A DNA stretch of 64,000 bases, taken from the NCBI GenBank assembly GCA_964644385.1, contig CAZXVJ010000006.1, positions 28,142 through 92,141 of the forward strand, in the 5' to 3' direction. Positions 1,270 to 14,281 of this stretch are shown one piece after another; position 1 is the stretch's first letter, and each line of letters opens with the position of its first letter. The notes under the pieces were generated by a model. It had not been told where the DNA came from and did not search any database. It worked only from the letters and a program-made list of their open reading frames with translations. Origin of the DNA: an uncultured Hyphomonas sp. Its GTDB lineage: Bacteria > Pseudomonadota > Alphaproteobacteria > Caulobacterales > Hyphomonadaceae. A program made the translations under genes and the position numbers.

Positions 1270-3870
1270 CTAAGGCAGGCGCGCACATTGGCTTTGAGAT
1301 TGATACGCGTTGAACCGCGAAAGGTCTCCGCTGGATAAATAGTAGTCGGGGTTCGCCTCCACGCCCGCCCTGGTGAGCGCATCCACTTCAGCCAAAAGTG
1401 CACAAATTTCGCTGCGGCTGTCTTCCCTGAAAATCTCATCGCGGCGAACCATGATGAGCGCCTTTTGGAGCCGTAAGGCAATAGATTCATCCCTCACGAT
1501 CTCATTTTCTGGCTGAATATCCAGATAGGCATCTGGAATGGCGGTGGCGCGCGATATGCTTTCGATGGCTGCGTCCAATTCGAAAGACAGCCCCGCTTCG
1601 ACATAGGCTCTATTCTTATGCGTGGCATAAACCAATTGGAGATAGGAATAGGTGTTGTCATCGAAGGGCTTCAGCCGTTCAAGCAAAACCTCCGCCGTAT
1701 CCAAATGCTCTTTGAGCTCATTTGCGATCTTGAGGTTCTCCGCCATTCCGGGTTGTCGTTTCTGAGCCTCCAAAATAGCACGCCCGCCATCTGAGTAAGT
1801 TCCCAGACGTGTCTCAACATCTTGAAGGGATGGTCGCCAGTCCAGTCCCATCACCGTTGTCCCAATCATTGTCTCCAGTGCCCAAAAATAGGTGTATATG
1901 TCCTCCGGATTAGACGGGTTGTCCTCCATCCTGCTTTTTGCGGTTTGAAATCCCGTCTGCACCCACTCGCGTACCGTCTCATATTCTGACCTGTCTGAAA
2001 TCGGCACGGTATCATGTGGTGGATTCCACTTACTCGAAGAGATCGCGTTGCCGGCAAGGTACAGGAAAGACCAATGTGAAATGATGTGGTCGTTATTGGC
2101 CAAATCATCTGCATACAATGCCCTGACGTCTCGCTCGATCGCGATGATTTCATCATCTAACTCTGCGAAACCTTGAGCGTCTGATTTTGCGCCCCAAAGC
2201 TCGAAGCGAATATCCAATAACGCCGCTTTGATCTCGATATTGTCTGGATCATCCTGAAGCAGGTCTTCATAGATCGCGCGCGCCTGCTCTGCGGCTTCTG
2301 GCATTTGTGAGCGGTCATTGAAATGAAAACGATAGACGTAGGCGCGGTTGACCAACTCATCAGCAAACAATTTCCGAACCTGCGGGCTCGCGTCGGGTCT
2401 CCCGGCGAGATCCTTCAATATGTTTAGCGAAATCTCAAACTGTTTTAGGCCCTCCTCAGGGTCACCCAGATTTCGGCCGCCCGACTGGGTCAACAAGTCT
2501 CCCAGTTGTTTGCGGCCCCGTGCATGTTCCAGGTCTAGGCTCGAATCCGCTTTCGCAGCCTCGGCTATAATGTTCAAATAGCGCGAAGACGTTTCGCTAA
2601 CCTTCTGCTGCAATGGCAACGTTCCGGGCAACTTGCTGAGGTCCTCGCCAAGGTCATTAAGTAGGAAACTCGTCAACTCGCGGGTTTCGGCAAATCGCTG
2701 GTCAGCTTGAACCCTTGCCGTCTGCGCCCGCCCATACTGCACCAGCGTTACGGTCAGGGCGGCAACAAGACCAAGCAGCGCCGCGCTCGTCAGGCCCACG
2801 CCAACTTTGTGCCGCGACATGAACTTGCTCACAGCATATTTACGCCCACCATCCACAGCGCTTACAGCGCGCCCGTTTAGATAGTTCTGAACGTCCTCTA
2901 CTAAGCCGCTGACGCTTGTAAAACGGCGCTCAGGTGCCTCGGCGGATGCTTTTTGCATAATCGCGACCAGTTCACCGTCCTGATCATTCGGTTCAATGAG
3001 GGCTTCGAGAAGTTTGCCAAGCGAATACACATCCGACAACGTGTTCGCACGCGCGCCGACAGAACGCTCTGGCGCAGCAAACCCAGGTGTAAAGCTCAGA
3101 CTGGCCAGTGAACCCGATCCCGCCTTTGCCGGGGCCGCCTCATCGAGGGGTTTGGCGATCCCGAAATCAATCAGTTTCACAACACCCGACATATCCACCA
3201 AAACATTGGAGGGGGTGATATCCCGGTGAATGATCTGGTTTTGGTGCGCGTAGGCCACGGCCGAACACGCAGCGATGAACAGTTGAAGACGATCGTTTTT
3301 CGACAAACCGTTTTGGCTCGCCCATTTTGTGATGGGCGAGCCGTCAATAAACTCCATCACAATATAGGGCTCGCCAGTGTCTAACTCACCGCCATCATAC
3401 AGGCGGGCAATGTTAGGATGGCTAAGGCCAGCCAGTGTTTGGCGTTCAATCGCAAATCTCGCGACCAATTTCTCAGACAGTGCGCCCGGGCGAACCACCT
3501 TGATGGCAACCTGGTGATCAAAGTCTCCGCTCGCTCGTTCCCCGCGATACACAGCGCCCATCCCACCGCGACCAATGAGGTCAATTATCCTGTAGGCCCC
3601 AATTTTCTCAGGCACTTTCGTGTCATCCAATGCGTCGTTAAAGGCCCCGCCCGTTCGCAGTTCGACGCGCGCCTCATTATCTCTGGACAGGTAAGTTAGC
3701 GCCCGTTCTATAAGGGCGGCGTCGCCTCGTCCTTCAGCCTCGATCCAGGCGATACGATCATCGGAGGGCACATCCAACGATCGCTCAAACAGCTCCAGCG
3801 CCCGCGTTTCAAGACTATTTTTATCATCTGACATATCGTCCCCCGCCCTCAGGTAATCACATCGCGTCAC
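1270..3870 (-). CDS. Ser/Thr protein kinase of the ECF-sigma-associated type. N-terminal helix motif, Hanks kinase domain, one TM helix, then a ~470-aa extracytoplasmic helical repeat domain.
   Basis: VAIKVV (VAIK), HRDITPSNVLV, DFGIAKP and APE motifs. N-terminus ALELFERSLDVPSDDRIAWIEAEGRGDAALIERALTYL matches the conserved N-terminal segment of kinases encoded next to ECF sigma factors. TM at LTSAALLGLVAALTVTLV. An alternative start at MSDDKNS (about nt 3834) is possible. Confidence 0.85.
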   Translation of the reverse strand: MTRCDYLRAGDDMSDDKNSLETRALELFERSLDVPSDDRIAWIEAEGRGDAALIERALTYLSRDNEARVELRTGGAFNDALDDTKVPEKIGAYRIIDLIGRGGMGAVYRGERASGDFDHQVAIKVVRPGALSEKLVARFAIERQTLAGLSHPNIARLYDGGELDTGEPYIVMEFIDGSPITKWASQNGLSKNDRLQLFIAACSAVAYAHQNQIIHRDITPSNVLVDMSGVVKLIDFGIAKPLDEAAPAKAGSGSLASLSFTPGFAAPERSVGARANTLSDVYSLGKLLEALIEPNDQDGELVAIMQKASAEAPERRFTSVSGLVEDVQNYLNGRAVSAVDGGRKYAVSKFMSRHKVGVGLTSAALLGLVAALTVTLVQYGRAQTARVQADQRFAETRELTSFLLNDLGEDLSKLPGTLPLQQKVSETSSRYLNIIAEAAKADSSLDLEHARGRKQLGDLLTQSGGRNLGDPEEGLKQFEISLNILKDLAGRPDASPQVRKLFADELVNRAYVYRFHFNDRSQMPEAAEQARAIYEDLLQDDPDNIEIKAALLDIRFELWGAKSDAQGFAELDDEIIAIERDVRALYADDLANNDHIISHWSFLYLAGNAISSSKWNPPHDTVPISDRSEYETVREWVQTGFQTAKSRMEDNPSNPEDIYTYFWALETMIGTTVMGLDWRPSLQDVETRLGTYSDGGRAILEAQKRQPGMAENLKIANELKEHLDTAEVLLERLKPFDDNTYSYLQLVYATHKNRAYVEAGLSFELDAAIESISRATAIPDAYLDIQPENEIVRDESIALRLQKALIMVRRDEIFREDSRSEICALLAEVDALTRAGVEANPDYYLSSGDLSRFNAYQSQSQCARLP

Positions 3871-3966
3871 TGTATTAAAGGCGCAGACGTCTGCAATATC
3901 GGGTCAATAACTGAACGTTCTCAAACTCAAATTGACCCAAAGACAATCGCTCTCACGCCTATTCTA

Positions 3967-4749: not shown

Positions 4750-5340
4750 TTACACGGCGTCGTTTATCGCATCGAGTAACCACGCCCGCGCCACACGCCA
4801 TTGACGCTTCACCGTCGACTCAGATGTTCCGGTCACTTCGGCGACCTCTTCCATCGTCATGCCGCCAAAATACCTCAGCTCAACAATGCTGGCCTTCTCC
4901 GCGTCGATGGCTGCAAGACGTATCAGAGACTTTTCCAACACATCCATGTCCAACCGCTGCGAGCCCCCTTCGAAGCGCGTCACAAGCGTAACCTTGCGAT
5001 GGTGTCGCTTGTCGGTCTTCTTCTTGCGCGCATGATCAATCAACACCCGGCGCATTGCGCGCGCAGATAGCGCGAGGAAGTGGCTTTTGTCCGCCCATTC
5101 AATCTGATCCAGCTGAATTAAACGAAGCGCGGCCTCATTCACCAAATCTCCCGTAGTGAGAGAATTATTACTTTCTGCTCGCAGAAGCGCCGCGGAAACC
5201 TGCCTTAACTCCGAATACAACAGCTCAAACAACGCGTCGCGCGCAGCTGTTTCGCCGCCGCGCCAGCGCTGTAGCAGCGCATTGCTGTCTTCAGAATTTG
5301 TCACCATCGACCGTCTTCCCCCCACGCTAGTAAGCCGCAA
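4750..5340 (-). CDS. ECF-type RNA polymerase sigma factor (sigma-70 regions 2 and 4) of the Ser/Thr-kinase-associated group.
   Basis: LLQRWRGGETAARDALFELLYSEL (region 2), HFLALSARAMRRVLIDHAR, and VELRYFGGMTMEEVAEVTGTSESTVKRQWRVARAWL (region 4 HTH). Adjacent to a kinase carrying the matching N-terminal motif. A probable alternative start at MVTNSE (about nt 5307) exists. Confidence 0.85.
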   Translation of the reverse strand: MRLTSVGGRRSMVTNSEDSNALLQRWRGGETAARDALFELLYSELRQVSAALLRAESNNSLTTGDLVNEAALRLIQLDQIEWADKSHFLALSARAMRRVLIDHARKKKTDKRHHRKVTLVTRFEGGSQRLDMDVLEKSLIRLAAIDAEKASIVELRYFGGMTMEEVAEVTGTSESTVKRQWRVARAWLLDAINDAV

Positions 5341-5456
5341 CCACAGCGCTTTTGCAAGAAATCATGAGCTTGCGCGATTTATTTCAAATTCTCCTGACCC
5401 ATTACCCGGTCAAGCTGCGCCTCTAACCGTGACACCGAATTTTTTGGAGATACGAA

Positions 5457-6011
5457 ATGGAAGACGTCGTCAGTGCGATCCCACCCGAAGCGTGGCCCCT
5501 CATAGATATATTATTCAATGTCACGATGGCGGTGACAGGCATTTGGCTGGCATGGACAGTCTTTGTCATTTGGCGACGCAACTCATCGAATTTGACGTCC
5601 ATGAGCAGCGTCTCACCAAATCGAAAAGCAAAACCCGACTTTTTGTCCGTCGATGAAAAGGAACGGCGTGAAGCCATCAAACGCGGCGAAAAGTTTGAAA
5701 AAGACCTCGACACTCGTGAACGAGAAGACGCCAAAGCGCTCAAGAAGGCGGGACGGAAAAAGGAGACCAAAGCCGGTCGTATCGGCCGCATCGTCTCATT
5801 CGGAATGGCGTTATTTTCAATCGCCACGATGATCTCTGGAACGGTTTTTCAGGTCTCAATCATGGGTCGGTATTGGGAACAATATTCTGCCAGTGAGCGC
5901 CTTCTCTCCGTCATCCAGAACCACCCCATCGGCGTTTCGGTCACCGTGCTGGTCATTCTCTACAACGTCATCACTTTCATCACTAACTACACATCGGAAG
6001 GGAGTTCATAA
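5457..6011 (+). CDS. Hypothetical 3-TM membrane protein with a central charged (KR/E-rich) helix. First gene of the operon.
   Basis: GGAGA RBS 7 nt upstream of the ATG. Hydrophobic segments at about aa 14-38, 113-135 and 157-178. Its stop is 1 nt before the next start. Confidence 0.5.
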   Translation: MEDVVSAIPPEAWPLIDILFNVTMAVTGIWLAWTVFVIWRRNSSNLTSMSSVSPNRKAKPDFLSVDEKERREAIKRGEKFEKDLDTREREDAKALKKAGRKKETKAGRIGRIVSFGMALFSIATMISGTVFQVSIMGRYWEQYSASERLLSVIQNHPIGVSVTVLVILYNVITFITNYTSEGSS

Positions 6012-6012
6012 C

Positions 6013-7608
6013 ATGGCTTCTGAACCAGTCATTCTAAGCGACCCACGGATCATCGCCGAATTTTTGCGCCAAACAGAATTCCAGGGTTTTTTCGAAAAGC
6101 GCTTCGCCGTTCCCCCAGACTATGCCGCCCTACTCTTTAAAAACGGACAGCTGATTGATGCCTTCAAAGGCGGACACTTCTCAGTTGGCGGCTTGGTCGA
6201 CAAGCTCAAAGGCGTCATTGGCGGCTCCACTCATGTCTCAATGATGATCGCGGATCTGAAACCGTTTCAAGTGCAAACGATGATTCAAGGCCGCAGCAAA
6301 GACAATGTCGATATTGTGGGCGTTGCCACACTGGAACTGCAGGTCAATCCAGATAAGCCGTCGAACTTCTTGGGCATGATGCACGGCGTGGATCGCGCAC
6401 CGGGCGACGCAAACGAGTTGGGCCGCAAATCTCTGACAAAAGGTCAGATTCTTGCGCGCATTCGCCCTCACCTATCAGACCGCGTTTTTGAAGCCACGAT
6501 TGGCCGGATCGACGCAATTGATCTGCGCGGTGACGTTGGCCTGCAAGACAAATTGCAAGCTGACATGATGCAAGAGGTGGAACGGGTCGCCGGCGATCTT
6601 GGTCTCTTGGTTCGGGCGGCGTCTATCGAATGGGCGGAAAACGCTGAAGAAGCCGCGCATCAGGCCCGGGCTGACGCGTCCCGCCAGCAAGACAATATCG
6701 ATTTTGAGATCGAAATGGCAAGACGCTCAGCTGAGCGCGCTCAAGACGCTATGATCTACAACATCAACAGCGAAGTCGATATCGCCAAGCTTCAGAACGC
6801 CAGTGAAGACGAACTCAAACACATGGCGCTCAACAGCGAGATCACCTTCCTGGACGCCCGCGAAGACGCAAAACGTCGTCAGGAAATGGATGAGTTGGAT
6901 CACCAGATTGCCTTTCTTGAAAAAGAACGCCGAACAACGTTTCAGAACGCGATTGAAACCGCGGAAAACGAAACGGATCTCAAACAGATCCAGCAGAAGC
7001 AGCTCAAACTCGACACCGAGATGGATGCGATGCGCCAGTTGCATCTGCAAAAAATGCAGCAATCCGGCGCATACAGCGAAGCGGAAGTCACCGCAAAAAT
7101 CCAAAAGCAACAGCGTGAACACATCTCTGCCCTGCAAGACATTGAGTTACGTGCAGAAAAAGTGCGTTCCGAATTAAAGCGAATTGAACGCAAAGACTCC
7201 CAGGACTTTGAACTAAAAAAACTTGGCGTTCAGCAGTCGATGAGTTCGGAACAAATTCTGGCTGTTCAGGCGGGGCTATCGCCGGATGTCGCTGCCGTAC
7301 TGGCCGAGCGAGCCCGCGCCGATTCCGATGGCAATGAAACCACGATGAAACTGATGCGCGAAATGGTAGAGGCAGCAACCGCCAGCCAAATCCGCTCAGA
7401 GGCGCAGGCCCGCGAGATGTTTAAAATGGGCATGGATGGCACGGTCGGCGTCGCAGCAGGCGCAGGAGGGGGACGCGCAAGCGGAGCGGCTGGGTCATCC
7501 AATAACGACTCAGCCGCTCAATCCTCAGTCGACTGTCCAAAATGCAGCACCACAGCGGACGCAATGTCAAAATTTTGCGCCAAGTGCGGCCACAAGCTTC
7601 GGACCTGA
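6013..7608 (+). CDS. SPFH (band-7/flotillin-like) domain protein with a long coiled-coil and a C-terminal zinc ribbon.
   Basis: GGAAGGGAG RBS before the ATG at 6013. The six-frame ORF starts at 5893, but the internal Met 41 at 6013 is the supported start. SPFH core-like TMIQGRSKDNVDIVGVATLELQVN (compare stomatin ILTKD.V.V.VD.VVYYRV). About 250 aa of heptad-like E/K/Q/R-rich sequence follow. C-terminus is VDCPKCSTTADAMSKFCAKCGHKL (CxxC..CxxC). Confidence 0.6.
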   Translation: MASEPVILSDPRIIAEFLRQTEFQGFFEKRFAVPPDYAALLFKNGQLIDAFKGGHFSVGGLVDKLKGVIGGSTHVSMMIADLKPFQVQTMIQGRSKDNVDIVGVATLELQVNPDKPSNFLGMMHGVDRAPGDANELGRKSLTKGQILARIRPHLSDRVFEATIGRIDAIDLRGDVGLQDKLQADMMQEVERVAGDLGLLVRAASIEWAENAEEAAHQARADASRQQDNIDFEIEMARRSAERAQDAMIYNINSEVDIAKLQNASEDELKHMALNSEITFLDAREDAKRRQEMDELDHQIAFLEKERRTTFQNAIETAENETDLKQIQQKQLKLDTEMDAMRQLHLQKMQQSGAYSEAEVTAKIQKQQREHISALQDIELRAEKVRSELKRIERKDSQDFELKKLGVQQSMSSEQILAVQAGLSPDVAAVLAERARADSDGNETTMKLMREMVEAATASQIRSEAQAREMFKMGMDGTVGVAAGAGGGRASGAAGSSNNDSAAQSSVDCPKCSTTADAMSKFCAKCGHKLRT

Positions 7609-7612
7609 TCTG

Positions 7613-9187
7613 ATGTCATCATCACCTCTTGAAATCTGTTCGTCTTGCGGCGCCACTATACCCGAAAACGCACGCTTTTGCGTTGAATGCGGCATCACAC
7701 TGGGATCTGGTCCGGTCGATACGCCGACGATGCACACGGTCAGCGGTCTCGAAACCGTCTTGCCGGACGATCAGGGCCACGCGCTCGCCAATGCGTCGTC
7801 ATCTGTTCTCAGCCCAGGCGACGTCATCGCTGACAAGTTTGAGATCGAGCGCGTCATCGGCCAAGGCGGCATGGGCACAGTCTACAAAGCAAAGGAGATT
7901 CTATCCGGCCAAACGGCAGCATTGAAAGTCATCTCGCAAAAGTTTGTCGGCAGCGAAAAAGCCGTCAAACGCTTGATCGAAGAAGGCATGACCACGCGGG
8001 GCATTTCACACCCCAATGTGGTCCAGATCTTCGACATCGGTCTGCACGGCACCCAGCCCTACATTGCCATGGAGTATTTAGACGGGCGGCCACTGCATGT
8101 TTGGCGCGGTGAGAAGATGGCCAATGGTGAAGCGGTTCCCGTTCGCGTCGCCGGCCAGATTATCAAAGAGGTGCTCCACGGACTTCAAGCCGCTCATGAT
8201 GCAGGGGTTATCCACCGCGACCTGAAGCCTGAAAACATCATGCTGATGGATGAGCCGTCGCAATCCTCTGCAAAAATCAAAATCGTTGATTTCGGCATTG
8301 CGCTCGCCACCAAGACAGCCACAGCGTCTGGCACCGGAACTGGGCTCGGCACGCAGCTTTACATGGCGCCAGAGCAGATCCGAAACGCCAATGCAGCAAA
8401 CGCCTCAGCAGATCTCTACTCATTGTCGAAAATCTTCTACGAATTGATCGTTGGTGTGCTGCCAACAGGTCATTGGCAACCGCCATCAGGCGGGCGTTCA
8501 GATGTGCCACGCGGCATAGATATGCTGATCGAGAAAGGTCTATCCGCCAATCGAGACATGCGCCCACAAAGCGCTGCGGCGTATAAGCAAGCGCTTATCG
8601 CGGGCATGAACCATCAGATGCCGTTACCCAAGCAGGATACAGGCAAGAATTGGAAAACGCCCGTCCTGCTCGCGGGTGGCGCACTGGCGGTCATACTGGG
8701 CGCAGTGGTCATCAACGACGCTGGATCATCGCCCCATCAATCTGGTGAACTGCAGCGTGATCAAAACGACTCAACTTTCGAGTTTTCGCCACCCAATCCC
8801 GAACGCGTTGACGTATCGCCGACAGAGCCGGTCACGCGCGATGTGCAGATTGGCCCTGGCACAGAAACGCCTCAGCCGCGCTTTGCCTACTATAATGGCC
8901 GCTGGGCTGACCCCTTCGGCGGAGCCTATGACATCACCATAAATGACAATGGAAACTTATCAGGCAATGGATATTTGGGAGATGGCACAAGCGTCTCAAT
9001 TGCAGGCCAACTGAGCGGCAACAATCTATCTTATTCACTTGGCATGTTCGGTGAAGCGTTCGCTGAGGGGACAGCAACGAAGACAGACCAGTGTCACTTC
9101 AACTTTACGACCGCCAATTACTTGACCGGCGGCTATTCTAACGGTGTCTTTCACGTCAATCACCAACCTGGGCAACCGTGTCCATGA
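7613..9187 (+). CDS. Zinc-ribbon-containing Ser/Thr protein kinase with one TM helix and a ~140-aa periplasmic C-terminal domain.
   Basis: Internal Met 60 of ORF 7436..9187 sits 5 nt after the upstream stop. N-terminal CSSCGATIPENARFCVECG zinc ribbon. Kinase motifs GQGGMGTVYKA, ALKVI, HRDLKPENIML, DFGIA, APE. TM at VLLAGGALAVILGAVVI. Confidence 0.85.
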   Translation: MSSSPLEICSSCGATIPENARFCVECGITLGSGPVDTPTMHTVSGLETVLPDDQGHALANASSSVLSPGDVIADKFEIERVIGQGGMGTVYKAKEILSGQTAALKVISQKFVGSEKAVKRLIEEGMTTRGISHPNVVQIFDIGLHGTQPYIAMEYLDGRPLHVWRGEKMANGEAVPVRVAGQIIKEVLHGLQAAHDAGVIHRDLKPENIMLMDEPSQSSAKIKIVDFGIALATKTATASGTGTGLGTQLYMAPEQIRNANAANASADLYSLSKIFYELIVGVLPTGHWQPPSGGRSDVPRGIDMLIEKGLSANRDMRPQSAAAYKQALIAGMNHQMPLPKQDTGKNWKTPVLLAGGALAVILGAVVINDAGSSPHQSGELQRDQNDSTFEFSPPNPERVDVSPTEPVTRDVQIGPGTETPQPRFAYYNGRWADPFGGAYDITINDNGNLSGNGYLGDGTSVSIAGQLSGNNLSYSLGMFGEAFAEGTATKTDQCHFNFTTANYLTGGYSNGVFHVNHQPGQPCP

Positions 9188-10317
9188 GCGCCGTGTTGAC
9201 CCCTTCCCCAAGCGCCGTTTGTTGCAACCGATCTGCACTCGACTGTGACGCGGGCTTTTGTACCGATTGCGGAAAATCGCTGATCCGCTGCATGGCCTCG
9301 GCAGAGTGTGGGTCATTGCTGGATGACCAAGGCGTCTGCCAGATTTGCGTCAGACCAGAATTGGCTCTTGATGCGGGCGCGGCAGCAACGGTTCGAGAGG
9401 GCGGCAAACTCGCTCTACCGCTCACCATCAAAAACGCGTCCCCCGTCGGTCGCCCCCTTTTCATCACGGGGCTTTGGATGAAGGAAGACGATGGAGAGTT
9501 GCGGGAAGTTCCGCTTCCCTTTAAGCGCCTGGACTCCGGCGAAGCGTCGAATGTTGGCATCCGTACAGGTGTGCTAGAATATGCTGGCGTGCACCAGGTG
9601 GATCTCCGCATTGCCGTTGCCACGCGCTATCAGTGGCGCCAGGAAGAATACGTCTTCTCCAGCGCGATCATCTTCCCGGTCGAGACCAAAGACCCAGACG
9701 GCCCGGTCACGAATATTCATGTCGATGGCGACGCAGGCCCCGGCTTCACTGTCTACAACCCAACGCGCATTGAGAACGAGCGCGCAACCGGCAACAGCGC
9801 GCACATTACCCCCATTTCGCTCAATATCCGGCGCGCCGATCAGTCTGAACGCACCTTAAAAAAACGAGGCTACGAATCTGGCCTGAGCGTGCCCCGGACG
9901 GTGACCTTCGAGTGGCAAGGTTTTGAAGACGGCGACGCCCCCTTTGTCGGCCCAATCTTAAGACCATCAGGGCTGCTTTGCTTTGGCCGCAACGCCACAT
10001 CGTTGGAGACAGGTGCAAACGATGCGCGTCTGCTTGTCAGCGGCCCAGACGGAATCGACGAAGCGGCGTCCCTTGCCATTTCTCGCCAACATTTCACGCT
10101 CTACGTGGAAAGCGGTCGACTTATGTTGCGCGTCGACAGCCGCTACGGGCTGCGTGTCAATGATCGGTCTCTTCAGCGCACCGAAACAAGCCTCCTCCAA
10201 AGCGGGGACATCATCCGCCCTTTGAGAAAATCACCCGACGCGCTGGCCATTTCTGTGCAATTCGAAACCCAGCAAGACATCGTCACGCTGATTGTCATAC
10301 GAAAGCAATCGACATGA
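9184..10317 (+). CDS. Cys-rich/zinc-ribbon N-terminal protein with a C-terminal FHA (phosphothreonine-binding) domain.
   Basis: ATG 9184 overlaps the kinase stop (ATGA); GTG 9178 is an alternative start. N-terminus has 9 Cys in 60 aa (CDAGFCTDCG..CGSLLDDQGVCQIC). C-terminus GRN..11..LLVSGPDG..6..SRQHFTLYVESGRLMLRVDSRYGLRVNDRSL..LQSGDIIRPL fits the FHA signature (GR..SRxH..StNG-like..N..GD.I). Confidence 0.75.
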   Translation: MSAVLTPSPSAVCCNRSALDCDAGFCTDCGKSLIRCMASAECGSLLDDQGVCQICVRPELALDAGAAATVREGGKLALPLTIKNASPVGRPLFITGLWMKEDDGELREVPLPFKRLDSGEASNVGIRTGVLEYAGVHQVDLRIAVATRYQWRQEEYVFSSAIIFPVETKDPDGPVTNIHVDGDAGPGFTVYNPTRIENERATGNSAHITPISLNIRRADQSERTLKKRGYESGLSVPRTVTFEWQGFEDGDAPFVGPILRPSGLLCFGRNATSLETGANDARLLVSGPDGIDEAASLAISRQHFTLYVESGRLMLRVDSRYGLRVNDRSLQRTETSLLQSGDIIRPLRKSPDALAISVQFETQQDIVTLIVIRKQST

Positions 10318-10844
10318 CACATGCATCGACATTGATCCTGCGCATAGCGCCAGTCGTCTTCATCGGCTGTCTCGCCTTAGCGGCTTGCAAACCGAGCAAC
10401 GTGCTCCGCCCTGACCAGTCACCCACACCGTCATTGACACAAAAAGAGCCAGCGGCACCGATCGCCAAACCAGCACCCCGTATTGGTTTTCCTTCCGGCG
10501 TTTGGGTCGAAGGAGATGACACAGTCTGGTCTGTTGCTGTCGACGGGAACCGCGTCCTTGCCAAAGGAGAATGCGGCCTCGGACAAGGCCTCACGCTTAC
10601 CGGAACAATAAAGAACGTCGCGCTGACCTATACCGTCAACACAGATGACCAAACCGGCATCGGAAAAGGACAAGCCGTCCTCGTCGGCGATGACCACGCT
10701 TACTTCGATGTCAGCGGCGGCATGCAAACCCACGGGCTGTTTCACTTCAATCACACCGATTTGAAAACAGCCTGCAGCCCAAAATTTACGCGCCGCGGAC
10801 CGATTGATATTCGCCCAGCGCCCAACACACGCCCCGGAGAGTGA
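10314..10844 (+). CDS. Predicted lipoprotein of unknown function.
   Basis: Signal peptide plus lipobox LALAAC. ATG overlaps the upstream stop (ATGA). No recognisable catalytic motif. Gly/Thr-rich beta-like composition. Confidence 0.55.
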   Translation: MTHASTLILRIAPVVFIGCLALAACKPSNVLRPDQSPTPSLTQKEPAAPIAKPAPRIGFPSGVWVEGDDTVWSVAVDGNRVLAKGECGLGQGLTLTGTIKNVALTYTVNTDDQTGIGKGQAVLVGDDHAYFDVSGGMQTHGLFHFNHTDLKTACSPKFTRRGPIDIRPAPNTRPGE

Positions 10845-10846
10845 GC

Positions 10847-11911
10847 ATGACAAACGCCCAAACCCGATACCGCATTGATGGCTATCTTCGTACCGATGAC
10901 GACCAACCCATCGCAACGCTCGAAATGACCAGCAAACCTAGCTTATCTGATTGGATAGATCTCAGGCCGCTCTGCTCTCCTGTTGAAGATCAGGGGCATG
11001 TCGGCTCATGCACCGCGAACGCCATTGTCGGTGCACTCGAATATCTGCAAATCGCCAGCGGCGGTCCATCTACGGATCTCTCGAGGTTGTTCGTCTACTA
11101 CAATGCCCGCAGGTTCTCAGATCGAGAGGGGGATGACTGCGGCGCCTCTATGGCGCACGCAATGGCATCGCTCCTCGCATTCGGGGCGTGCCCAGAATCG
11201 GTTTGGCCCTATGATGAGGCACGTTGGAGTAAAAAGCCGCCCGACGGCTGCTATCAGAGCGCCGTGCCTTTTGCAGGCCTGCACTATGCCAGCGTCGCCC
11301 CCAATGATGAGCGGAAATACGTCCTGGCTTCAGGCCTACCCATTATCTTTGGTATGGGTGTGCCGGAACATCTCTTGATGAACGTTGGCGCACAAACCGG
11401 CTACATGCCCGCCCCGGCAGACGGCAATTGGGAGCCCGCATCCAGCGGGCATGCAATGCTGATTGTTGGGTACAGCGACGCGAACAATGCATGGCTGGTT
11501 AGAAATTCATGGGGAACCGGTTTCGGTGAAGGCGGTCACGTTTGGATCGACTATGCGGTTATGGATCACTATGCGATCGGTGCGCAGGATTTTTGGACGG
11601 TCGGTCCGCTCGATCGGAACAAATTCTTCCGTCTTGCCGGTCCCAGTTCGCAATCTGTACAGCAACACGCCGTCCAGCACGCCACGCCGGCGACCCGCAA
11701 CTTTATGGATCAAGTCCGCAAACATCTTCGCCACGACCTCGAAACGCATCTCGACGCGACCCGTCAGGGCCTGCGCGATCGCCTTCGCGGTCCCGGAGTG
11801 GGCGGCGGATACGACAAAGGCCCCGGCGCGGGGGGCGGCTATGACAAAGGACCGGGCGTTGGCGGCGGATATGACCGCGGCCCCGGCGCAGGAGGTGGAT
11901 ACGATGACTAA
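10847..11911 (+). CDS. Papain-like cysteine peptidase (C1 family), copy 1. No signal peptide or prodomain, with 4x GPGxGGGYD(K/R) C-terminal repeats.
   Basis: DWIDLRPLCSPVEDQGHVGSCTANAI (papain mature N-terminus pattern DWR..VTPVKNQG.CGSCWAF; Q and C spaced 6 apart). HAMLIVGY (catalytic His). NSWGTGFGEGGHVWI (Asn plus Trp, compare NSWGTGWGENGYIRI). GGAGAG RBS 6 nt upstream of ATG 10847; GTG 10841 is an alternative start. Confidence 0.8.
   Translation: MTNAQTRYRIDGYLRTDDDQPIATLEMTSKPSLSDWIDLRPLCSPVEDQGHVGSCTANAIVGALEYLQIASGGPSTDLSRLFVYYNARRFSDREGDDCGASMAHAMASLLAFGACPESVWPYDEARWSKKPPDGCYQSAVPFAGLHYASVAPNDERKYVLASGLPIIFGMGVPEHLLMNVGAQTGYMPAPADGNWEPASSGHAMLIVGYSDANNAWLVRNSWGTGFGEGGHVWIDYAVMDHYAIGAQDFWTVGPLDRNKFFRLAGPSSQSVQQHAVQHATPATRNFMDQVRKHLRHDLETHLDATRQGLRDRLRGPGVGGGYDKGPGAGGGYDKGPGVGGGYDRGPGAGGGYDD
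11789..11908 (+). repeat. In-frame tandem repeat of four 30-nt units encoding GPG(V/A)GGGYD(K/R/D).
   Basis: Units ggtcccggagtgggcggcggatacgacaaa, ggccccggcgcggggggcggctatgacaaa, ggaccgggcgttggcggcggatatgaccgc, ggccccggcgcaggaggtggatacgatgac read directly from the sequence. Confidence 0.85.
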
Positions 11912-12911
11912 ACTAATTGACGGCGTCCTATTGGGCGGCTGGATTCCAGACGAGGTTGACGAGGCGATTCCAACACTCAAAACCGTAGCCGACATTCAAA
12001 CCCCGAACCTGGTCGACCTGAGGCCAAAATGCTCCCCGGTTGAAAATCAAGCGGCTGTCGGCTCCTGCGTCGCCAATGCTATCGTCGGCGCTCTCGAATA
12101 TCATCAGATCCGAAATGGCTCGACCATGAAAGATCTCTCCCGTCTCTTCGTTTATTACAATGCGCGCCGCCTCGGCGAGCGTATTGGCGAGGCAGGCACC
12201 ACCATTCAGCGGGCGATGGCCGCCATCCTCGGATGGGGCGCCTGCCCAGCTTCGATGTGGCCCTACCAAACCGCCATGGTAGATGAGCGTCCCAGCGAGG
12301 CTTGCTACAAAGCGGCGCAAATGTTCAAAGGCGTCCAGATTGCCCAAACCAGCTGGGGCGCTGGATGCCGTGAAGCGCTCGCCAACGGTTTGCCGGTTGC
12401 GTTCGGCATGAATGTCGCCATGCAAGACTTCAACAGCAATGGTCCGGCTGGCCAAACCGGCATGCTCAAGCCCCCATTGGACGGCAACTGGGCAGACCCA
12501 AGCGGCGGGCATGCCATGCTGATCGTGGGATATGACGACGCGCGCCACGCGTGGCTCGTGCGAAATTCATGGGGAGAGGCCTGGGGAGAAGGCGGGCACG
12601 TCTGGATCGACTATGATTATCTCAACCACTACATCGCATATGGACGCCGCGCCGCGCCATACGTGATTGGCCAAATTCAAGATATTCGAGCCTTTGAATT
12701 GAGCGGTGCCACAACAGAACAAGTTGTGGCGCAGGCTCTCTCGCGCGCGCCAGCGCAGGTTCAGAGCGAAATGGGCGCGCTCCGCCAACATCTTGCTTCA
12801 GACCTGGATTCAAGCCTCTCAGACGCCCGCAAAAGCATCCGCGATAGGCTACGTGGGCCGGGCGCAGGTGGCGGCTATGATAAAGGCCCTGGCGCGGGCG
12901 GAGGATATTAA
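11904..12911 (+). CDS. Papain-like cysteine peptidase (C1 family), copy 2, paralog of the upstream gene. 2x GPGAGGGYD repeats at the C-terminus.
   Basis: Internal Met 148 of ORF 11463..12911. Start overlaps the upstream stop by 8 nt. LVDLRPKCSPVENQAAVGSCVANAI, HAMLIVGY and NSWGEAWGEGGHVWIDY keep all catalytic residues. Tail motif LRDRLRGPGAGGGYDKGPGAGGGY is shared with copy 1. Confidence 0.8.
   Translation: MTKLIDGVLLGGWIPDEVDEAIPTLKTVADIQTPNLVDLRPKCSPVENQAAVGSCVANAIVGALEYHQIRNGSTMKDLSRLFVYYNARRLGERIGEAGTTIQRAMAAILGWGACPASMWPYQTAMVDERPSEACYKAAQMFKGVQIAQTSWGAGCREALANGLPVAFGMNVAMQDFNSNGPAGQTGMLKPPLDGNWADPSGGHAMLIVGYDDARHAWLVRNSWGEAWGEGGHVWIDYDYLNHYIAYGRRAAPYVIGQIQDIRAFELSGATTEQVVAQALSRAPAQVQSEMGALRQHLASDLDSSLSDARKSIRDRLRGPGAGGGYDKGPGAGGGY
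12854..12908 (+). repeat. In-frame tandem repeat of 1.8 units of the same 30-nt GPGAGGGYDK motif at the end of the second peptidase gene.
   Basis: gggccgggcgcaggtggcggctatgataaa then ggccctggcgcgggcggaggatat, followed directly by the stop codon. Confidence 0.85.
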
Positions 12912-12912
12912 A

Positions 12913-13404
12913 ATGCCAAATCCCATTCTCGCCGCGAACTCAGAACGCCAAAATCGGCTGCGACGCAACGGACCGCTCCGTAAAGCCATGACCGTTTTCC
13001 CCTTATTGGTTCCGCCAATCGGAATTTACATGATGATGGCGCTGTTTTCGGGAGATGGCGGCATTCAAGGCTCGCTCGATACAACGGTCTTCAATCTTTC
13101 AATGCTGTCGGGCGCACGCTGGGAATTGCGCGCCGGAGATCTATTGTCCCTTTTCGCCCTTCTCATGCTCTCCATCGAGATTGTGAAATCGACTAACACA
13201 AAATCTGGCGCCATCGCCAATCATGCCGCCTCAATGGGGCTTTTGCTCTTCTGCTTGATCGGATTTCTGGTGTTCCGCAGTTTCGCGACATCTGTGTTCT
13301 TTCTGATCACGATGATGTGCCTTTTAGATGTGCTGGCCGGTGTTATGGTCACAATCGTCTCCGCGCGCCGCGATTTCGGTGTTGGAGACGGGTTTGGTGG
13401 TTAG
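12913..13404 (+). CDS. Hypothetical small membrane protein with about 4 TM helices. Last gene of the operon.
   Basis: Internal Met 70 of ORF 12706..13404, 1 nt after the upstream stop. Hydrophobic segments VFPLLVPPIGIYMMMALF, LLSLFALLMLSI, MGLLLFCLIGFLVF, VFFLITMMCLLDVLAGVMV. Confidence 0.5.
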   Translation: MPNPILAANSERQNRLRRNGPLRKAMTVFPLLVPPIGIYMMMALFSGDGGIQGSLDTTVFNLSMLSGARWELRAGDLLSLFALLMLSIEIVKSTNTKSGAIANHAASMGLLLFCLIGFLVFRSFATSVFFLITMMCLLDVLAGVMVTIVSARRDFGVGDGFGG

Positions 13405-13633: not shown

Positions 13634-14281
13634 ATGTTTGCGGTCATTAAGACAGGCGGTAAGCAGTATAAGGTTGCCGAAGGCGATCAAATCACTGTTG
13701 AGAAACTGGACGCCGAAGAAGGCAAGAGCATCACGTTTGATGATGTGCTTATGGTTGGATCTGGCGCAGACGTTACGATTGGCGCGCCTCTGGTGGCCGG
13801 TGCTAGTGTGACAGGCACGGTCGCCCAGCAGACCCGCGGCTCAAAAATCCTGATCCGCAAAAAGCGACAGCGTTCAACATACCGCCGCACCAAAGGCCAC
13901 CGTCAGCATCTGACCGTTGTCGATATTACAGGCATCTCTGCCAAGGGCGGCAAAAAAGCAGCCCCCGCCAAGAAAGCAGAAGCGGCTCCAAAAGCCGCTG
14001 AAGCGCCCAAGCCCGCCGCCAAGAAGGCTGACGTCAGCGCAATGGATGCGCGCGGACGCCTCGCTGGCCCGCAAGGCGAAGCAGATGATCTGAAGCTGAT
14101 CAAAGGCGTCGGCAAAGTGCTGGAAGGCAAGTTGAACGAAGCTGGCATCTACCACTTCTGGCAGGTCGCAGCGCTGAAAGGCGAACAGATCACTGAGCTT
14201 GAAGAAGAGATGAGCTTTCCAGGCCGCATCGAGCGAGATGACTGGGTAAGCCAAGCCGAAGAATTCGCAAAAGACGCGTAA
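13634..14281 (+). CDS. rplU: 50S ribosomal protein L21 with a ~110-aa C-terminal extension (Ala/Lys-rich linker plus an HhH-like module).
   Basis: [44 protein letters not shown] is canonical L21. The C-terminal extension is read directly from the ORF. Confidence 0.9.

What the first reader, a model, noticed from the sequence alone, without database searches (positions are those of the whole stretch)
10847..12911. Tandem paralogous papain-like (C1) peptidases lacking signal peptide and propeptide, with GPGxGGGYD(K/R) decapeptide repeat tails
Seen in sequence:
- Both proteins keep the papain catalytic set in the right spacing: Q..6..C in QGHVGSCTANA / QAAVGSCVANA, His in HAMLIVGY, and Asn plus Trp in NSWG.GFGEGGHVWI.
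- Their N-termini align with the mature papain N-terminus (DWIDLRP..SPVEDQG), so there is no inhibitory prodomain and no secretion signal. That implies constitutively folded cytoplasmic C1 proteases, which are rare in bacteria and potentially dangerous to the cell.
- Each ends in a conserved helix (HL..DL...L...R..LRDRLR) followed by perfect decapeptide repeats GPG(V/A)GGGYD(K/R), 4 copies in copy 1 and about 2 in copy 2.

Inference: the tail may be a localisation or partner-binding tag (e.g. to the SPFH scaffold), or a regulated autoinhibitory or phosphorylatable (Tyr) element.
Basis: partly seen in the sequence, partly recalled or inferred. Interest (0 to 1): 0.8.

Follow-up and report, generated by a model that had tools for sequence, protein, structure and literature searches.

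The report
Papain-type proteases of an SPFH–kinase operon
Two neighbouring genes encode intact, non-secreted papain-family proteases whose unusual tails mark them as the likely protease output of a conserved but undescribed bacterial membrane signalling operon (SPFH scaffold, Ser/Thr kinase, FHA protein).

Summary
pep1 (10847-11911) and pep2 (11904-12911) are 48% identical Peptidase_C1 proteins. Their Gln/Cys/His/Asn/Trp align with papain Q19/C25/H159/N175/W177. Neither has a signal peptide or an I29 propeptide. They carry 4 and 1.8 copies of GPG(A/V)GGGYD(K/R).

The interpretation needs correcting in three places.
- They are xylellain-type bacterial C1A enzymes, a known and not rare kind. Their roughly 32 N-terminal residues are conserved, confidently modelled, and appear to align structurally with xylellain's short N-terminal pro-region. 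"No prodomain, constitutively active" is therefore not supported.
- The feature that tracks genomic context is a C-terminal long helix ending in RxRLR. The Gly/Tyr repeats are a later addition centred on Hyphomonadaceae.
- The helix form occurs in 67 of 80 genome loci. Apart from loci cut by contig ends, these sit in one gene cluster: small membrane protein, SPFH/coiled-coil/Zn-ribbon protein, FHA protein, transmembrane Ser/Thr kinase, then 1-3 peptidases. The cluster is found in at least five phyla. In Hyphomonadaceae it sits behind a conserved ECF-type promoter motif.

The tail was found only on this peptidase family and is under strong purifying selection. My best guess is a docking motif. 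The mechanism is untested. I found no description of the system or the motif.

The parts
10847..11911 (+). pep1: xylellain-type C1A cysteine peptidase, 354 aa. Catalytic codons: Q49 10991-10993, C55 11009-11011, H202 11450-11452, N220 11504-11506.
   Evidence: ORF. Pfam PF00112, E 1.2e-13. PDB 3ois, E 1e-34. Catalytic columns.
11693..11788 (+). pep1 C-terminal amphipathic helix ending in RDRLR (residues 310-314, nt 11774-11788). The helix start is approximate.
   Evidence: Alignment to the pep2 helix modelled at residues 284-316. R310, R312 and R314 are invariant, and L313 and G315 nearly invariant, in 30 homologues.
11789..11908 (+). pep1 tail: four decapeptides, GPGVGGGYDK GPGAGGGYDK GPGVGGGYDR GPGAGGGYDD. 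The last unit also carries the Shine-Dalgarno GGAGGTG for pep2.
   Evidence: SD sequence seen.
11904..12911 (+). pep2: paralogous C1A cysteine peptidase, 335 aa. Catalytic codons: Q49 12048-12050, C55 12066-12068, H203 12510-12512, N221 12564-12566.
   Evidence: AF2 model has pLDDT 91.9. Top Foldseek hit is xylellain 3ois.
12753..12854 (+). pep2 C-terminal helix (modelled at residues 284-316) ending in RDRLR (residues 313-317).
   Evidence: (DSSP H284-316; 10-residue pLDDT blocks over 281-320: 93, 84, 89, 79).
12855..12908 (+). pep2 tail: GPGAGGGYDK GPGAGGGY, then the stop codon. The last unit carries the Shine-Dalgarno GGAGGA for the next gene.
   Evidence: Tail pLDDT is about 59.
5395..5422 (+). 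ECF-type promoter motif TGACCCA-N15-GCGCCT, 34 nt upstream of the first gene of the operon.
   Evidence: Two exact matches in the window against 0 in shuffles. The same motif lies 4-40 nt upstream of the first operon gene (mem184) in 15 related loci (14 scored as mem184; in L009 it was scored against an over-extended SPFH ORF call). It also lies upstream of separately placed mem163 genes (4 loci) and a relocated FHA gene (1 locus).
5457..6011 (+). mem184: small membrane protein (3-4 hydrophobic segments with a charged middle). First gene of the conserved core.
   Evidence: Syntenic in about 55 loci. No family hit.
6013..7608 (+). SPFH531: SPFH-like domain, about 270 residues of coiled coil, and a C-terminal Zn ribbon.
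   Evidence: Zn-ribbon Pfam hits in 22 of 22 homologues. The AF2 model is of low confidence (pLDDT 65), yet all top PDB Foldseek hits are SPFH proteins. Band_7 was not detected by Pfam at E<=0.01.
7613..9187 (+). Receptor Ser/Thr kinase: N-terminal Zn ribbon, Hanks-type kinase domain, one TM segment and a periplasmic C-terminal domain. The ORF could start at 7436, but 7613 directly follows the SPFH stop.
   Evidence: Pfam Pkinase, E 7.6e-44, plus Zn_Ribbon_1. TM segment. Start codon.
9184..10317 (+). FHA protein: Cys-rich N-terminus, an uncharacterised middle domain and a C-terminal FHA domain. Its ATG overlaps the kinase stop (ATGA).
   Evidence: Pfam FHA, E 3.3e-7.
10314..10844 (+). Lipoprotein (LAAC lipobox) paralogous to the periplasmic domain of the kinase.
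   Evidence: and BLASTP E 1e-9. Present in 7 of 18 tail-bearing loci and in none of the others.
12913..13404 (+). mem163: 4-TM membrane protein whose start lies 2 nt after the pep2 stop.
   Evidence: It co-occurs in 23 of 67 loci. Where it is placed separately it carries the same promoter motif.
4750..5340 (-). ECF sigma factor (TIGR02999 / PF07638), divergent from the operon.
   Evidence: An ECF sigma gene lies in the same locus in 27 of 67 system loci.
1270..3906 (-). Ser/Thr kinase with TM segment and TPR-like region (1270-3870), preceded by the second copy of the promoter motif (3879-3906).

Best explanation
SHOWN. pep1 and pep2 are catalytically intact papain-family (C1A) cysteine peptidases of the bacterial xylellain type, with no secretion signal. 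They belong to a subfamily that always carries a C-terminal extension: a long amphipathic helix ending in RxRLR within a few residues of the C-terminus. That subfamily is almost always encoded at the end of one conserved gene cluster: small membrane protein, SPFH/coiled-coil/Zn-ribbon protein, FHA protein, transmembrane Zn-ribbon Ser/Thr kinase, then 1-3 peptidases. In Hyphomonadaceae the cluster is preceded by a conserved ECF-type promoter motif and sits next to an ECF sigma/kinase pair.

INFERRED. The peptidases are the proteolytic output of this membrane-associated phospho-signalling module.
- They are kept latent by the short N-terminal segment, as in xylellain.
- They are recruited to, or confined by, the SPFH assembly through the C-terminal helix and RLR end. 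This would follow the recurrent pairing of an SPFH cage with a protease (HflK/C-FtsH, stomatin-NfeD).
- The kinase senses a periplasmic cue, and the FHA protein reads the resulting pThr marks to gate the protease.
- The GPG(A/V)GGGY(D[KR]) tail is a disordered short linear motif added in one clade. Present in 1-5 copies, it most likely increases avidity for a conserved partner in the complex. pep1 (multi-copy, acidic end) and pep2 (ending in Tyr-COOH) probably act as a pair.
For: - Identity and catalytic set. All full-length peptidase ORFs from the 80 related genome loci (and two metagenome loci) keep Q/C/H/N; the single exception lacks the N-terminal columns only because the contig ends.
- Cytoplasmic location: no hydrophobic segment, and papain's disulfide Cys22 is Val in both proteins.
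- Context: of 80 genome loci, 67 peptidases have the C-terminal extension. 57 of these have all four partner genes and 62 have three or four; the other five have little or no DNA upstream of the match (four) or were misclassified by my script (L079). All 13 peptidases without the extension have 0 of 4 partners.
- Host range: Alphaproteobacteria, Gammaproteobacteria, Planctomycetota, Acidobacteriota and Gemmatimonadota.
- Operon structure in the window: overlapping or abutting genes (ATGA at 9184; 10844/10847; ATGACTAA at 11904; 12911/12913), with no convincing internal terminator.
- SPFH fold of the 531-aa protein.
- Promoter motif shared by the operon, the upstream TM/TPR kinase gene (1270-3870) and relocated system genes.
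- Tail: nearly invariant across proteins only 43-48% identical. Differences between repeat units are almost all at third-codon positions, with 0-1 amino-acid change. In an exhaustive HMMER scan of 1.84 billion representatives, the helix-plus-tail was found only on C1 peptidases or their fragments. Tail pLDDT of about 59 fits a disordered motif.
- Recurrent tandem duplication (1-3 copies) and fusion of two C1 domains in one protein (P0030, L022, L029) fit a paired mode of action.
Against: - No interaction was tested; the evidence is synteny and conservation only.
- The SPFH model is of low confidence (pLDDT 65), and Pfam Band_7 is not detected at E<=0.01.
- No substrate is known.
- Model coordinates are not exposed, so I could not check whether the N-terminal segment or the RLR end lies in the active-site cleft.
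- Most system-associated peptidases do without the Gly/Tyr tail, so it is dispensable for the core mechanism.
- The tail lacks Ser and Thr, so it is not directly coupled to the kinase/FHA pair.
- The ECF sigma pair is absent from most loci outside Alphaproteobacteria.
Confidence: 0.5

Rival explanations
1. The tail is a removable C-terminal pro- or autoinhibitory segment. The invariant R-L-R|G junction offers P2 Leu, P1 Arg and P1' Gly, the classic preference of papain-family subsites. Self-cleavage, or cleavage by the paralogue, would shed the Gly/Tyr repeats. That would leave the same ...RLR C-terminus that tail-less orthologues have naturally. The RLR end may itself sit in the S3-S1 subsites, as the C-terminus does in C1B enzymes (PepC, bleomycin hydrolase).
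For: - Tail-less orthologues in the same gene cluster end 0-4 residues after RLR (RLRD, RLRGK, RLRS, RLRGGR and others).
- R, L, R and G are invariant or nearly invariant.
- The modelled helix ends at L316, directly before R317-G318.
- The P2-hydrophobic/P1-Arg preference of C1A enzymes, and the C-terminal arm lying in the cleft of C1B enzymes, are established knowledge recalled from memory.
Against: - The sequence beyond the junction (GPGAGGGY) is more conserved than a disposable cap would need to be, and it is repeated 2-5 times in pep1-type proteins.
- The pLDDT of 79 falling to 59 across the junction does not indicate a docked segment.
- The PF03051 (C1B) hit is below threshold (17.8 against 22 bits).
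- No processed forms can be seen in sequence data.
Confidence: 0.2
2. The system is an anti-phage or abortive-infection module. The kinase/FHA pair senses infection and unleashes the cytoplasmic papain-like proteases to kill or arrest the cell.
For: - Cytoplasmic proteases held latent and coupled to sensors are common in defence systems (general knowledge).
- The kinase domain matches kinase models in PADLOC (PD-T4-6, mad6).
- Distribution across phyla is patchy, which suggests horizontal transfer.
Against: - PADLOC gives no hit for the peptidases, the SPFH protein, the FHA protein or the membrane proteins. The kinase hits are generic Hanks-domain matches.
- Flanking genes are housekeeping: coaA-like, rplU, rpmA and obgE in the window, and pheST, rplT and rpmI in L002.
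- No plasmid or phage record holds a full-length relative.
- The cluster appears in most of the sampled Hyphomonas and Henriciella loci and is under an ECF promoter motif. That looks like an envelope-stress regulon.
Confidence: 0.1
3. The Gly/Tyr repeats have no specific partner. They are a flexible spacer or a low-complexity element that promotes self-association, like the GPGGY and GGY motifs of silk, resilin and glycine-rich proteins.
For: - Composition and predicted disorder.
- Variable copy number of 1-5.
- Resemblance to elastomeric GPGGY-type repeats (from memory).
Against: - Spacers tolerate substitution. Here eight residues are almost invariant across homologues only about 45% identical, and across repeat units whose third-codon positions have largely diverged.
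- Most family members have only a single copy ending exactly at Tyr-COOH, which points to recognition of a defined end.
Confidence: 0.1
4. They are secreted degradative or virulence proteases, exported by a signal-peptide-independent route with the Gly-rich C-terminus as the secretion signal (RTX/type I-like).
For: - C-terminal Gly/Asp-rich repeats loosely recall RTX GGxGxDxUx nonapeptides.
- Xylellain-like peptidases of plant pathogens have been proposed to be secreted (PMC12090721).
Against: - The period is 10, not 9, and there is no hydrophobic position.
- There is no Pfam HemolysinCabind hit.
- No ABC transporter, membrane-fusion protein or TolC genes occur in the conserved cluster.
- Papain's disulfide Cys22 is not conserved.
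- Most orthologues lack the repeats altogether.
- All partner domains with which the peptidases co-occur are cytoplasmic.
Confidence: 0.05

Closest known systems
Xylellain (Xylella fastidiosa cysteine protease, PDB 3ois) and the 'short bacterial xylellain-type C1A peptidases' of PMC10380794
   Same: - Best sequence match (E 1e-34; E 2e-51 with a profile) and best structural match (TMt 0.81).
- No signal peptide and no I29 propeptide.
- A short N-terminal segment that appears to align structurally. Its sequence motif G-W-[IV]-P-D in plain members corresponds to G-[CWY]-[LI]-x-[ED] here.
- The same catalytic set.
   Different: - Xylellain ends right after ...DDFWVIKTV. It has neither the roughly 80-residue C-terminal extension (linker, long helix, RxRLR) nor the Gly/Tyr repeats.
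- The 13 plain relatives examined are not in the SPFH/FHA/kinase cluster.
SPFH-protease pairs: HflK/C-FtsH, prohibitin-m-AAA, stomatin-NfeD/STOPP, QmcA-YbbJ
   Same: An SPFH-fold, coiled-coil protein is encoded in one operon with a protease and a small membrane protein. The theme is a membrane cage or scaffold that controls a protease.
   Different: - The protease here is a papain-type cysteine peptidase, not an AAA+ metalloprotease or a ClpP-like serine protease.
- No NfeD domain was detected.
- The SPFH protein has no TM segment of its own and ends in a Zn ribbon.
- A Ser/Thr kinase and an FHA protein are integral to the cluster.
Archaeal ESCRT-linked loci (Meth_adaptin and Halo_FHA types; Makarova et al. 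2024, PMC10936438)
   Same: [quoted passage not shown] Membrane Ser/Thr kinases, phosphatases and FHA proteins lie in the same neighbourhoods.
   Different: - The loci here have no Vps4 or ESCRT-III genes.
- Those archaeal loci have no papain-like peptidase.
- The hosts here are bacterial.
C1B aminopeptidases (PepC, bleomycin hydrolase; Pfam PF03051)
   Same: They are cytoplasmic papain-family enzymes whose C-terminal arm reaches into the active-site cleft (from memory). This is a precedent for a functional C-terminus in a C1 enzyme.
   Different: - PF03051 scores below threshold, and only over the His/Asn region (17.8 against 22 bits).
- The architecture differs, and no hexamer-forming features were examined.
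Kinase-regulated ECF sigma factors (TIGR02999 / PF07638 type, 'ECF43-like')
   Same: The adjacent sigma factor hits TIGR02999 (E 1e-53) and PF07638. It is paired with a TM/TPR Ser/Thr kinase. A conserved -35/-10-like motif precedes the operon.
   Different: - The link between this sigma factor and the promoter motif is inferred from co-occurrence only.
- Assignment to the ECF43 group is from memory and was not tested.

Membership tests
Peptidase family C1, subfamily C1A (papain) | Match to Pfam PF00112 above the gathering score | tested here: met
   52.1 bits (pep1) and 57.5 bits (pep2) against a cut-off of 20.7.
Peptidase family C1, subfamily C1A (papain) | Catalytic Cys/His dyad with Asn and the oxyanion Gln at papain-equivalent positions | tested here: met
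   Q49, C55, H202/203 and N220/221 align with Q19, C25, H159 and N175. They are conserved in every full-length related ORF.
Peptidase family C1, subfamily C1A (papain) | Papain-like two-lobe fold | tested here: met
   The AF2 model has pLDDT 91.9. 294 PDB hits at E<=0.001; the 50 listed are C1-family papain-fold proteins (xylellain, papain, cathepsins, mite allergens, Lpg2622), led by 3ois.
Peptidase family C1, subfamily C1A (papain) | Peptidase activity sensitive to E-64 | not testable with these tools
   This needs enzymology.
Classical secreted or lysosomal papain zymogens | N-terminal signal peptide plus an I29-type inhibitory propeptide | tested here: not met
   No hydrophobic segment. 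No Inhibitor_I29 hit. There is no upstream coding room for pep1.
Xylellain-type short bacterial C1A peptidases | Closest sequence and structure relative is xylellain; short N-terminal segment instead of a propeptide | tested here: met
   The N-terminal segment is modelled at pLDDT 75-98.
Xylellain-type short bacterial C1A peptidases | The N-terminal segment occupies the active-site cleft (latency) | not testable with these tools
   Model coordinates are not exposed, and the xylellain paper is not held.
C1B (PepC / bleomycin hydrolase) | Match to PF03051 above the gathering score | tested here: not met
   17.8 bits against a cut-off of 22, and only for pep2.
   All top Foldseek hits are SPFH proteins, with TMt 0.6-0.7 to stomatin core domains. 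However, the model has pLDDT 65, and Pfam Band_7 is not found at E<=0.01 in 22 homologues. Some database entries carry a precomputed PF01145 flag.
SPFH-NfeD operons | An NfeD-domain partner gene | tested here: not met
   Neither mem184 nor mem163 gives an NfeD hit.
Known anti-phage defence systems (PADLOC 2.0) | System-specific component models match | tested here: not met
   Only generic kinase-domain hits. Nothing for the peptidases, the SPFH protein, the FHA protein or the membrane proteins.
RTX / type I secretion repeats | GGxGxDxUx nonapeptide repeats (Pfam HemolysinCabind) | tested here: not met
   The period is 10 residues (30 nt), there is no hydrophobic position, and there is no Pfam hit.

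The most novel reading that the evidence does not exclude
The operon encodes a previously undescribed, phosphorylation-gated membrane proteolysis machine. An SPFH/coiled-coil/Zn-ribbon cage recruits papain-type proteases through their C-terminal helix-RLR end, and in Hyphomonadaceae through the multivalent GPGAGGGY motif. A receptor Ser/Thr kinase and an FHA adaptor switch them on. The whole forms the output arm of a kinase-controlled ECF sigma regulon. It would be a cysteine-protease counterpart of HflK/C-FtsH, spread across at least five bacterial phyla.
Probability: 0.25. Interest if true: 0.8.

Novelty: new variant of a known kind. Interest (0 to 1): 0.62.

Why it matters
- No substrate is known for the bacterial xylellain-type C1A peptidase that has been purified and solved, xylellain itself (PMC12090721). 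Here a whole subfamily is tied by near-perfect synteny to defined partners: an SPFH scaffold, a receptor kinase, an FHA reader and an ECF promoter. That gives a concrete, testable setting for what such a protease does and how a potentially dangerous cytoplasmic protease is held in check.
- It would add a cysteine protease to the SPFH-cage-plus-protease theme.
- The nearly invariant, family-restricted GPGAGGGY end motif is a ready-made handle (peptide pull-downs, tail swaps) for finding the partner.
- Cultured Hyphomonas and Henriciella strains carry the system (H. polymorpha, H. chukchiensis, H. pacifica, Henriciella aquimarina, Henriciella pelagia).

Tried and rejected
- Is the tail a portable module found on other proteins? 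The word-indexed search with the 68-aa helix-plus-tail returned only a fragment of pep1. The exhaustive HMMER scan of 1.84 billion representatives returned 12 hits, all C1 peptidases or fragments. I rejected the idea, within the limits of phmmer on a low-complexity query.
- NCBIfam and PADLOC gave no family for the peptidases, the SPFH protein, the FHA protein or the membrane proteins.
- Pfam Band_7 was not detected in the SPFH531 family, so I had to rely on a low-confidence model plus Foldseek.
- Profile search of the PDB with the SPFH531 alignment matched only the Zn ribbon.
- Does the tail or the N-terminal segment occlude the cleft? I could not test this. Structure prediction returns no coordinates and the afdb50 library is unavailable.
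- The xylellain structure paper is not in the library, so statements about its pro-region rest on memory.
- Literature searches for the motif strings and for the gene combination found nothing relevant.
- Is one paralogue a dead enzyme? Rejected: all keep Q/C/H/N. The single exception seen in the database is P0111, with GSS in place of GSC.
- Is any partner feature specific to tail-bearing loci? The SPFH C-termini look the same in both classes. Only the periplasmic lipoprotein is restricted to tail-bearing loci, and that is confounded by phylogeny.
- The RLRGG resemblance to the ubiquitin C-terminus: considered and dropped. No ubiquitin-like domain was detected in the model or by Pfam, and no E1/E2-like genes were seen in the loci with called genes.

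Full report
**1. The observation**

The window holds two co-directional ORFs at the stated place.
- pep1 runs from ATG 10847 (GGAGAG 8 nt upstream; the ORF cannot extend beyond GTG 10841) to 11911, giving 354 aa.
- pep2 runs from ATG 11904 to 12911, giving 335 aa. Its start overlaps the pep1 stop in ATGACTAA, and its Shine-Dalgarno GGAGGTG lies inside pep1's last repeat.

Both hit Pfam Peptidase_C1 well above threshold, with no other domain above threshold. They are 47.6% identical. Papain's disulfide Cys22 is Val in both. Neither protein has a hydrophobic segment.

The tails are four units of GPG(V/A)GGGYD(K/R/D) at 11789-11908 and 1.8 units at 12855-12908. The degenerate DNA motif occurs 6 times in the window against 0 in 100 shuffles. 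Units differ at 4-7 of 8 third-codon positions but at 0-1 residues. The peptide is therefore maintained by selection and was not produced by recent slippage.

**2. What kind of peptidase**

The best solved relative by far is xylellain from Xylella fastidiosa, PDB 3ois. It scores E 1e-34 with the single sequence, E 2e-51 with a 119-sequence profile, and Foldseek E 1.5e-20 with TMt 0.81. Cathepsins and papain follow at E around 1e-9 to 1e-13.

[quoted passage not shown] It notes that signal peptides are absent from the intracellular prokaryotic ones (PMC10380794). Relatives are numerous:
- 1191 clusters at E<=1e-3 in the protein collection.
- At least 531 tblastn-confirmed stretches in one-genome-per-species contigs.

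A non-secreted C1 protease without a cathepsin-type propeptide is thus a known and not especially rare kind.

**3. The N-terminus is not bare**

About 32 residues precede the papain-mature start. They are conserved. The consensus is Y-R-x-x-G-[CWY]-[LI]-x-[ED]...P-x-L, which matches the Y-G-W-[IV]-P-D-L-P-D motif of plain xylellain-like proteins.

In the AlphaFold model of pep2 (pLDDT 91.9), residues 11-40 are placed at pLDDT 89-98 and include three short strands. The Foldseek alignment to 3ois covers 278 columns of a 268-residue chain. The sequence alignment covers only chain residues 55-289. I infer that the N-terminal segments are structurally superposed as well.

From memory of Leite et al. 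2013 (FEBS Lett 587:339; listed as ref 70 in PMC10380794), xylellain's N-terminal pro-region covers the active-site cleft. I could not read that paper. I also could not inspect coordinates. Occupation of the cleft in pep1 and pep2 is therefore an inference.

**4. The C-terminal extension and where the repeats fit**

Xylellain ends right after ...DDFWVIKTV. pep1 and pep2 continue for about 80-100 residues: a linker, a short helix, and a long helix (pep2 residues 284-316, pLDDT about 80-90) ending in R-D-R-L-R. The tail follows at pLDDT about 59.

Among the 120 closest database homologues, nearly all end in ...R[DNE]RLRGPG[AV]GGGY.
- The common type, like pep2 and about 320 aa long, stops exactly at that Tyr.
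- The pep1 type has 2-5 decapeptide units and ends in DD or DE.

In 80 genome loci the picture widens.
- 18 loci have the Gly/Tyr tail.
- 27 end 0-4 residues after RLR (RLRD, RLRGK, RLRS, RLRGGR and others).
- 22 have the helix with a more divergent end. A few of these carry a Cys-rich CxxCxGxG tail instead.
- 13 have no extension at all.

The helix ending in a basic RxRLR is therefore the general feature. The Gly/Tyr repeats are an addition in one subclade, mostly Hyphomonadaceae plus two Planctomycetota MAG contigs (L010, L016). A scan of 1.84 billion representative proteins with the 68-residue helix-plus-tail found it only on C1 peptidases or their fragments.

**5. Genomic context: the main result**

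I called ORFs in all fetched loci and searched them with the window's proteins.
- All 13 peptidases without the extension have none of four partner genes nearby.
- Of the 67 with the extension, 57 have all four and 62 have three or four. Of the other five, four have little or no DNA upstream of the match (L010, L013, L018, L024 and L069 all fall in this group or just above it) and L079 was misclassified by my script.

The core gene order is as follows.
- mem184: a small membrane protein.
- SPFH531: about 530 aa with a long coiled coil and a C-terminal Zn ribbon.
- An FHA protein: Cys-rich N-terminus and a C-terminal FHA domain.
- A receptor Ser/Thr kinase: N-terminal Zn ribbon, kinase domain, one TM segment and a periplasmic domain.
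- One to three peptidases.

In the window and its two nearest relatives (L004, L005) the kinase gene precedes the FHA gene. The two metagenomic contexts fetched first show the same cluster at 43-48% peptidase identity.

Host range covers Hyphomonadaceae, Sphingomonadales, Rhizobiales, Acetobacteraceae, Parvularculaceae, Gammaproteobacteria (Pseudohongiella and others), Planctomycetota/Pirellulaceae, Acidobacteriota and Gemmatimonadota.

In the window the genes abut or overlap: ATGA at 9184, 10844/10847, ATGACTAA at 11904, and 12911/12913. There is no convincing internal terminator.

The 531-aa protein gives no Pfam Band_7 hit. Its model is weak (pLDDT 65). Nevertheless every top Foldseek hit is an SPFH protein: prohibitin, stomatin, HflK/C, erlin, flotillin or QmcA, with TMt 0.6-0.7 to stomatin cores.

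No component apart from the generic kinase domain matches PADLOC or NCBIfam models. No plasmid or phage record holds a full-length relative. Flanks are housekeeping genes.

**6. Regulation**

Divergent from the operon lies an ECF sigma factor (TIGR02999, E 1e-53; PF07638). Nearby are a PPP-family phosphatase and a second, TM/TPR Ser/Thr kinase.

A motif TGACCC(A/G)-N15-GCGCCT occurs exactly twice in the 64-kb window, against 0 in 100 shuffles.
- One copy lies 34 nt upstream of mem184 (5395-5422, + strand).
- The other lies directly upstream of the TM/TPR kinase gene (3879-3906, - strand).

Across the fetched loci a slightly relaxed form gives 29 hits in 2.76 Mb.
- 15 lie 4-40 nt upstream of mem184 (14 were scored as mem184; in L009 the hit was scored against an over-extended SPFH ORF call).
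- 4 lie upstream of mem163 where that gene is placed apart.
- 1 lies upstream of a relocated FHA gene.

System genes carry the motif with them when they move. This argues that the operon, including pep1 and pep2, is the regulon of the adjacent kinase-linked ECF sigma factor in Hyphomonadaceae. It remains an inference from co-occurrence. Most loci outside Alphaproteobacteria lack both the sigma factor and the motif.

**7. How it most likely works**

Shown: pep1 and pep2 are intact C1A catalytic machines with no export signal. They carry a context-specific C-terminal module, sit in a conserved operon with an SPFH-like protein, an FHA protein, a kinase and membrane proteins, and carry a selected, family-restricted tail motif.

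Inferred:
- The peptidases are the proteolytic output of a membrane-associated Ser/Thr phospho-signalling module.
- They are kept latent by the N-terminal segment.
- They are recruited or confined by the SPFH assembly through the helix-RLR end. This would parallel HflK/C-FtsH and stomatin-NfeD, a comparison that rests on established knowledge of those systems.
- They are gated by the kinase/FHA pair.
- The GPGAGGGY units act as a short linear motif that adds avidity. pep1 (multi-copy, acidic end) and pep2 (Tyr-COOH end) work as a pair. Recurrent tandem duplications and two-domain fusions (P0030, L022, L029) support a paired mode.

I put about 0.5 on this composite. The identity and system membership are near 0.85, and the docking role of the tail is near 0.35.

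The main rival, at about 0.2, is that the tail is a removable cap. R-L-R|G is a textbook papain-type site (P2 Leu, P1 Arg). Cleavage there would leave the same RLR end that tail-less orthologues have.

Less likely readings are an anti-phage effector (0.1), a partner-less low-complexity spacer (0.1) and a secreted protease with an RTX-like signal (0.05). Tyr phosphorylation of the tail has no support. The tail has no Ser or Thr, so it cannot itself be the FHA ligand.

**8. Comparison and novelty**

As enzymes these are members of C1A and of the xylellain type; the membership features I could test were met. They differ from every described member I could find in three ways: the C-terminal helix-RLR module, the Gly/Tyr repeats, and obligatory linkage to the SPFH/FHA/kinase cluster.

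The SPFH/coiled-coil/Zn-ribbon architecture, together with kinases and FHA proteins, has been noted in archaeal ESCRT-linked loci (PMC10936438). Those loci lack a papain-like protease, and the loci here lack ESCRT genes.

Full-text searches for the motif strings and for the gene combination found no description. The library covers open-access papers only.

I rate this a new variant of a known kind, with interest 0.62. The enzymes themselves are ordinary. The conserved multi-phylum system they report on, and the sharply defined tail motif, are worth follow-up.

Noticed in passing
window 5395-5422 (+) and 3879-3906 (-); L004, L006, L008, L025, L027, L032-L038, L044, L047 and others: A conserved ECF-type promoter motif, TGA(C/A)C(C/G)(G/A)-N15-GCGCCT. 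It precedes the operon, the TM/TPR kinase gene, and relocated mem163 and FHA genes in other genomes. There are two exact matches in the window against 0 in shuffles.
   Followed up: partly
window 11890-11896 and 12897-12902: The Shine-Dalgarno sequences of pep2 (GGAGGTG) and of mem163 (GGAGGA) are formed by the Gly codons of the last repeat unit of the preceding peptidase gene. The tail DNA therefore also serves translational coupling.
   Followed up: no
window 10314-10844 compared with 8753-9184: The lipoprotein upstream of pep1 (LAAC lipobox) is a paralogue of the kinase's periplasmic C-terminal domain (25% identity, E 1e-9). It occurs only in tail-bearing loci (7 of 18 against 0 of 49).
   Followed up: partly
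L045 10900-12084 (-), L058 9896-10999, L061 4692-5795: Some system-associated peptidases carry a Cys-rich CxxCxGxG (DnaJ-type zinc-finger-like) C-terminal tail in place of the RLR or Gly/Tyr end. This is interesting because the SPFH protein and the kinase each carry a Zn ribbon and the FHA protein has a Cys-rich N-terminus.
   Followed up: no
P0030 (605 aa); L022 8816-10924; L029 8543-10918; L024 1-2729: Two C1 domains are fused in one polypeptide in some genomes, and three tandem peptidase genes occur in L024. This suggests the peptidases work as pairs or oligomers.
   Followed up: no
P0111 (317 aa, MAG 'Pseudomonadota bacterium'): One family member has Ser in place of the catalytic Cys (QIGSSVANA) and ends in ...RDRLRGG. 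It may be a serine-nucleophile or an inactive variant.
   Followed up: no
window 7436-7613: The longest kinase ORF overlaps the SPFH gene by 172 nt. ATG 7613, five nt after the SPFH stop, gives a 524-aa product that begins right at the Zn ribbon, close to the homologue lengths seen (489 and 508 aa). It is the more likely start.
   Followed up: partly
window 3967-4719 (+): A calcineurin-like (PPP-type) phosphoesterase lies between the ECF sigma and the TM/TPR kinase genes. Homologues recur next to the system in L004, L005, L007, L043, L044, L046 and L047. It may be the cognate phosphatase.
   Followed up: no
window 13634-14281 (+): Ribosomal protein L21 (rplU) carries a C-terminal extension of about 110 residues: a Lys/Ala/Pro-rich linker followed by a small helical domain. 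Total length is 215 aa.
   Followed up: no
L002 1036-1063 (-): The promoter motif also lies upstream of an unannotated 280-aa gene (145-987, - strand) next to the TM/TPR kinase gene. This gene may be a further regulon member.
   Followed up: no
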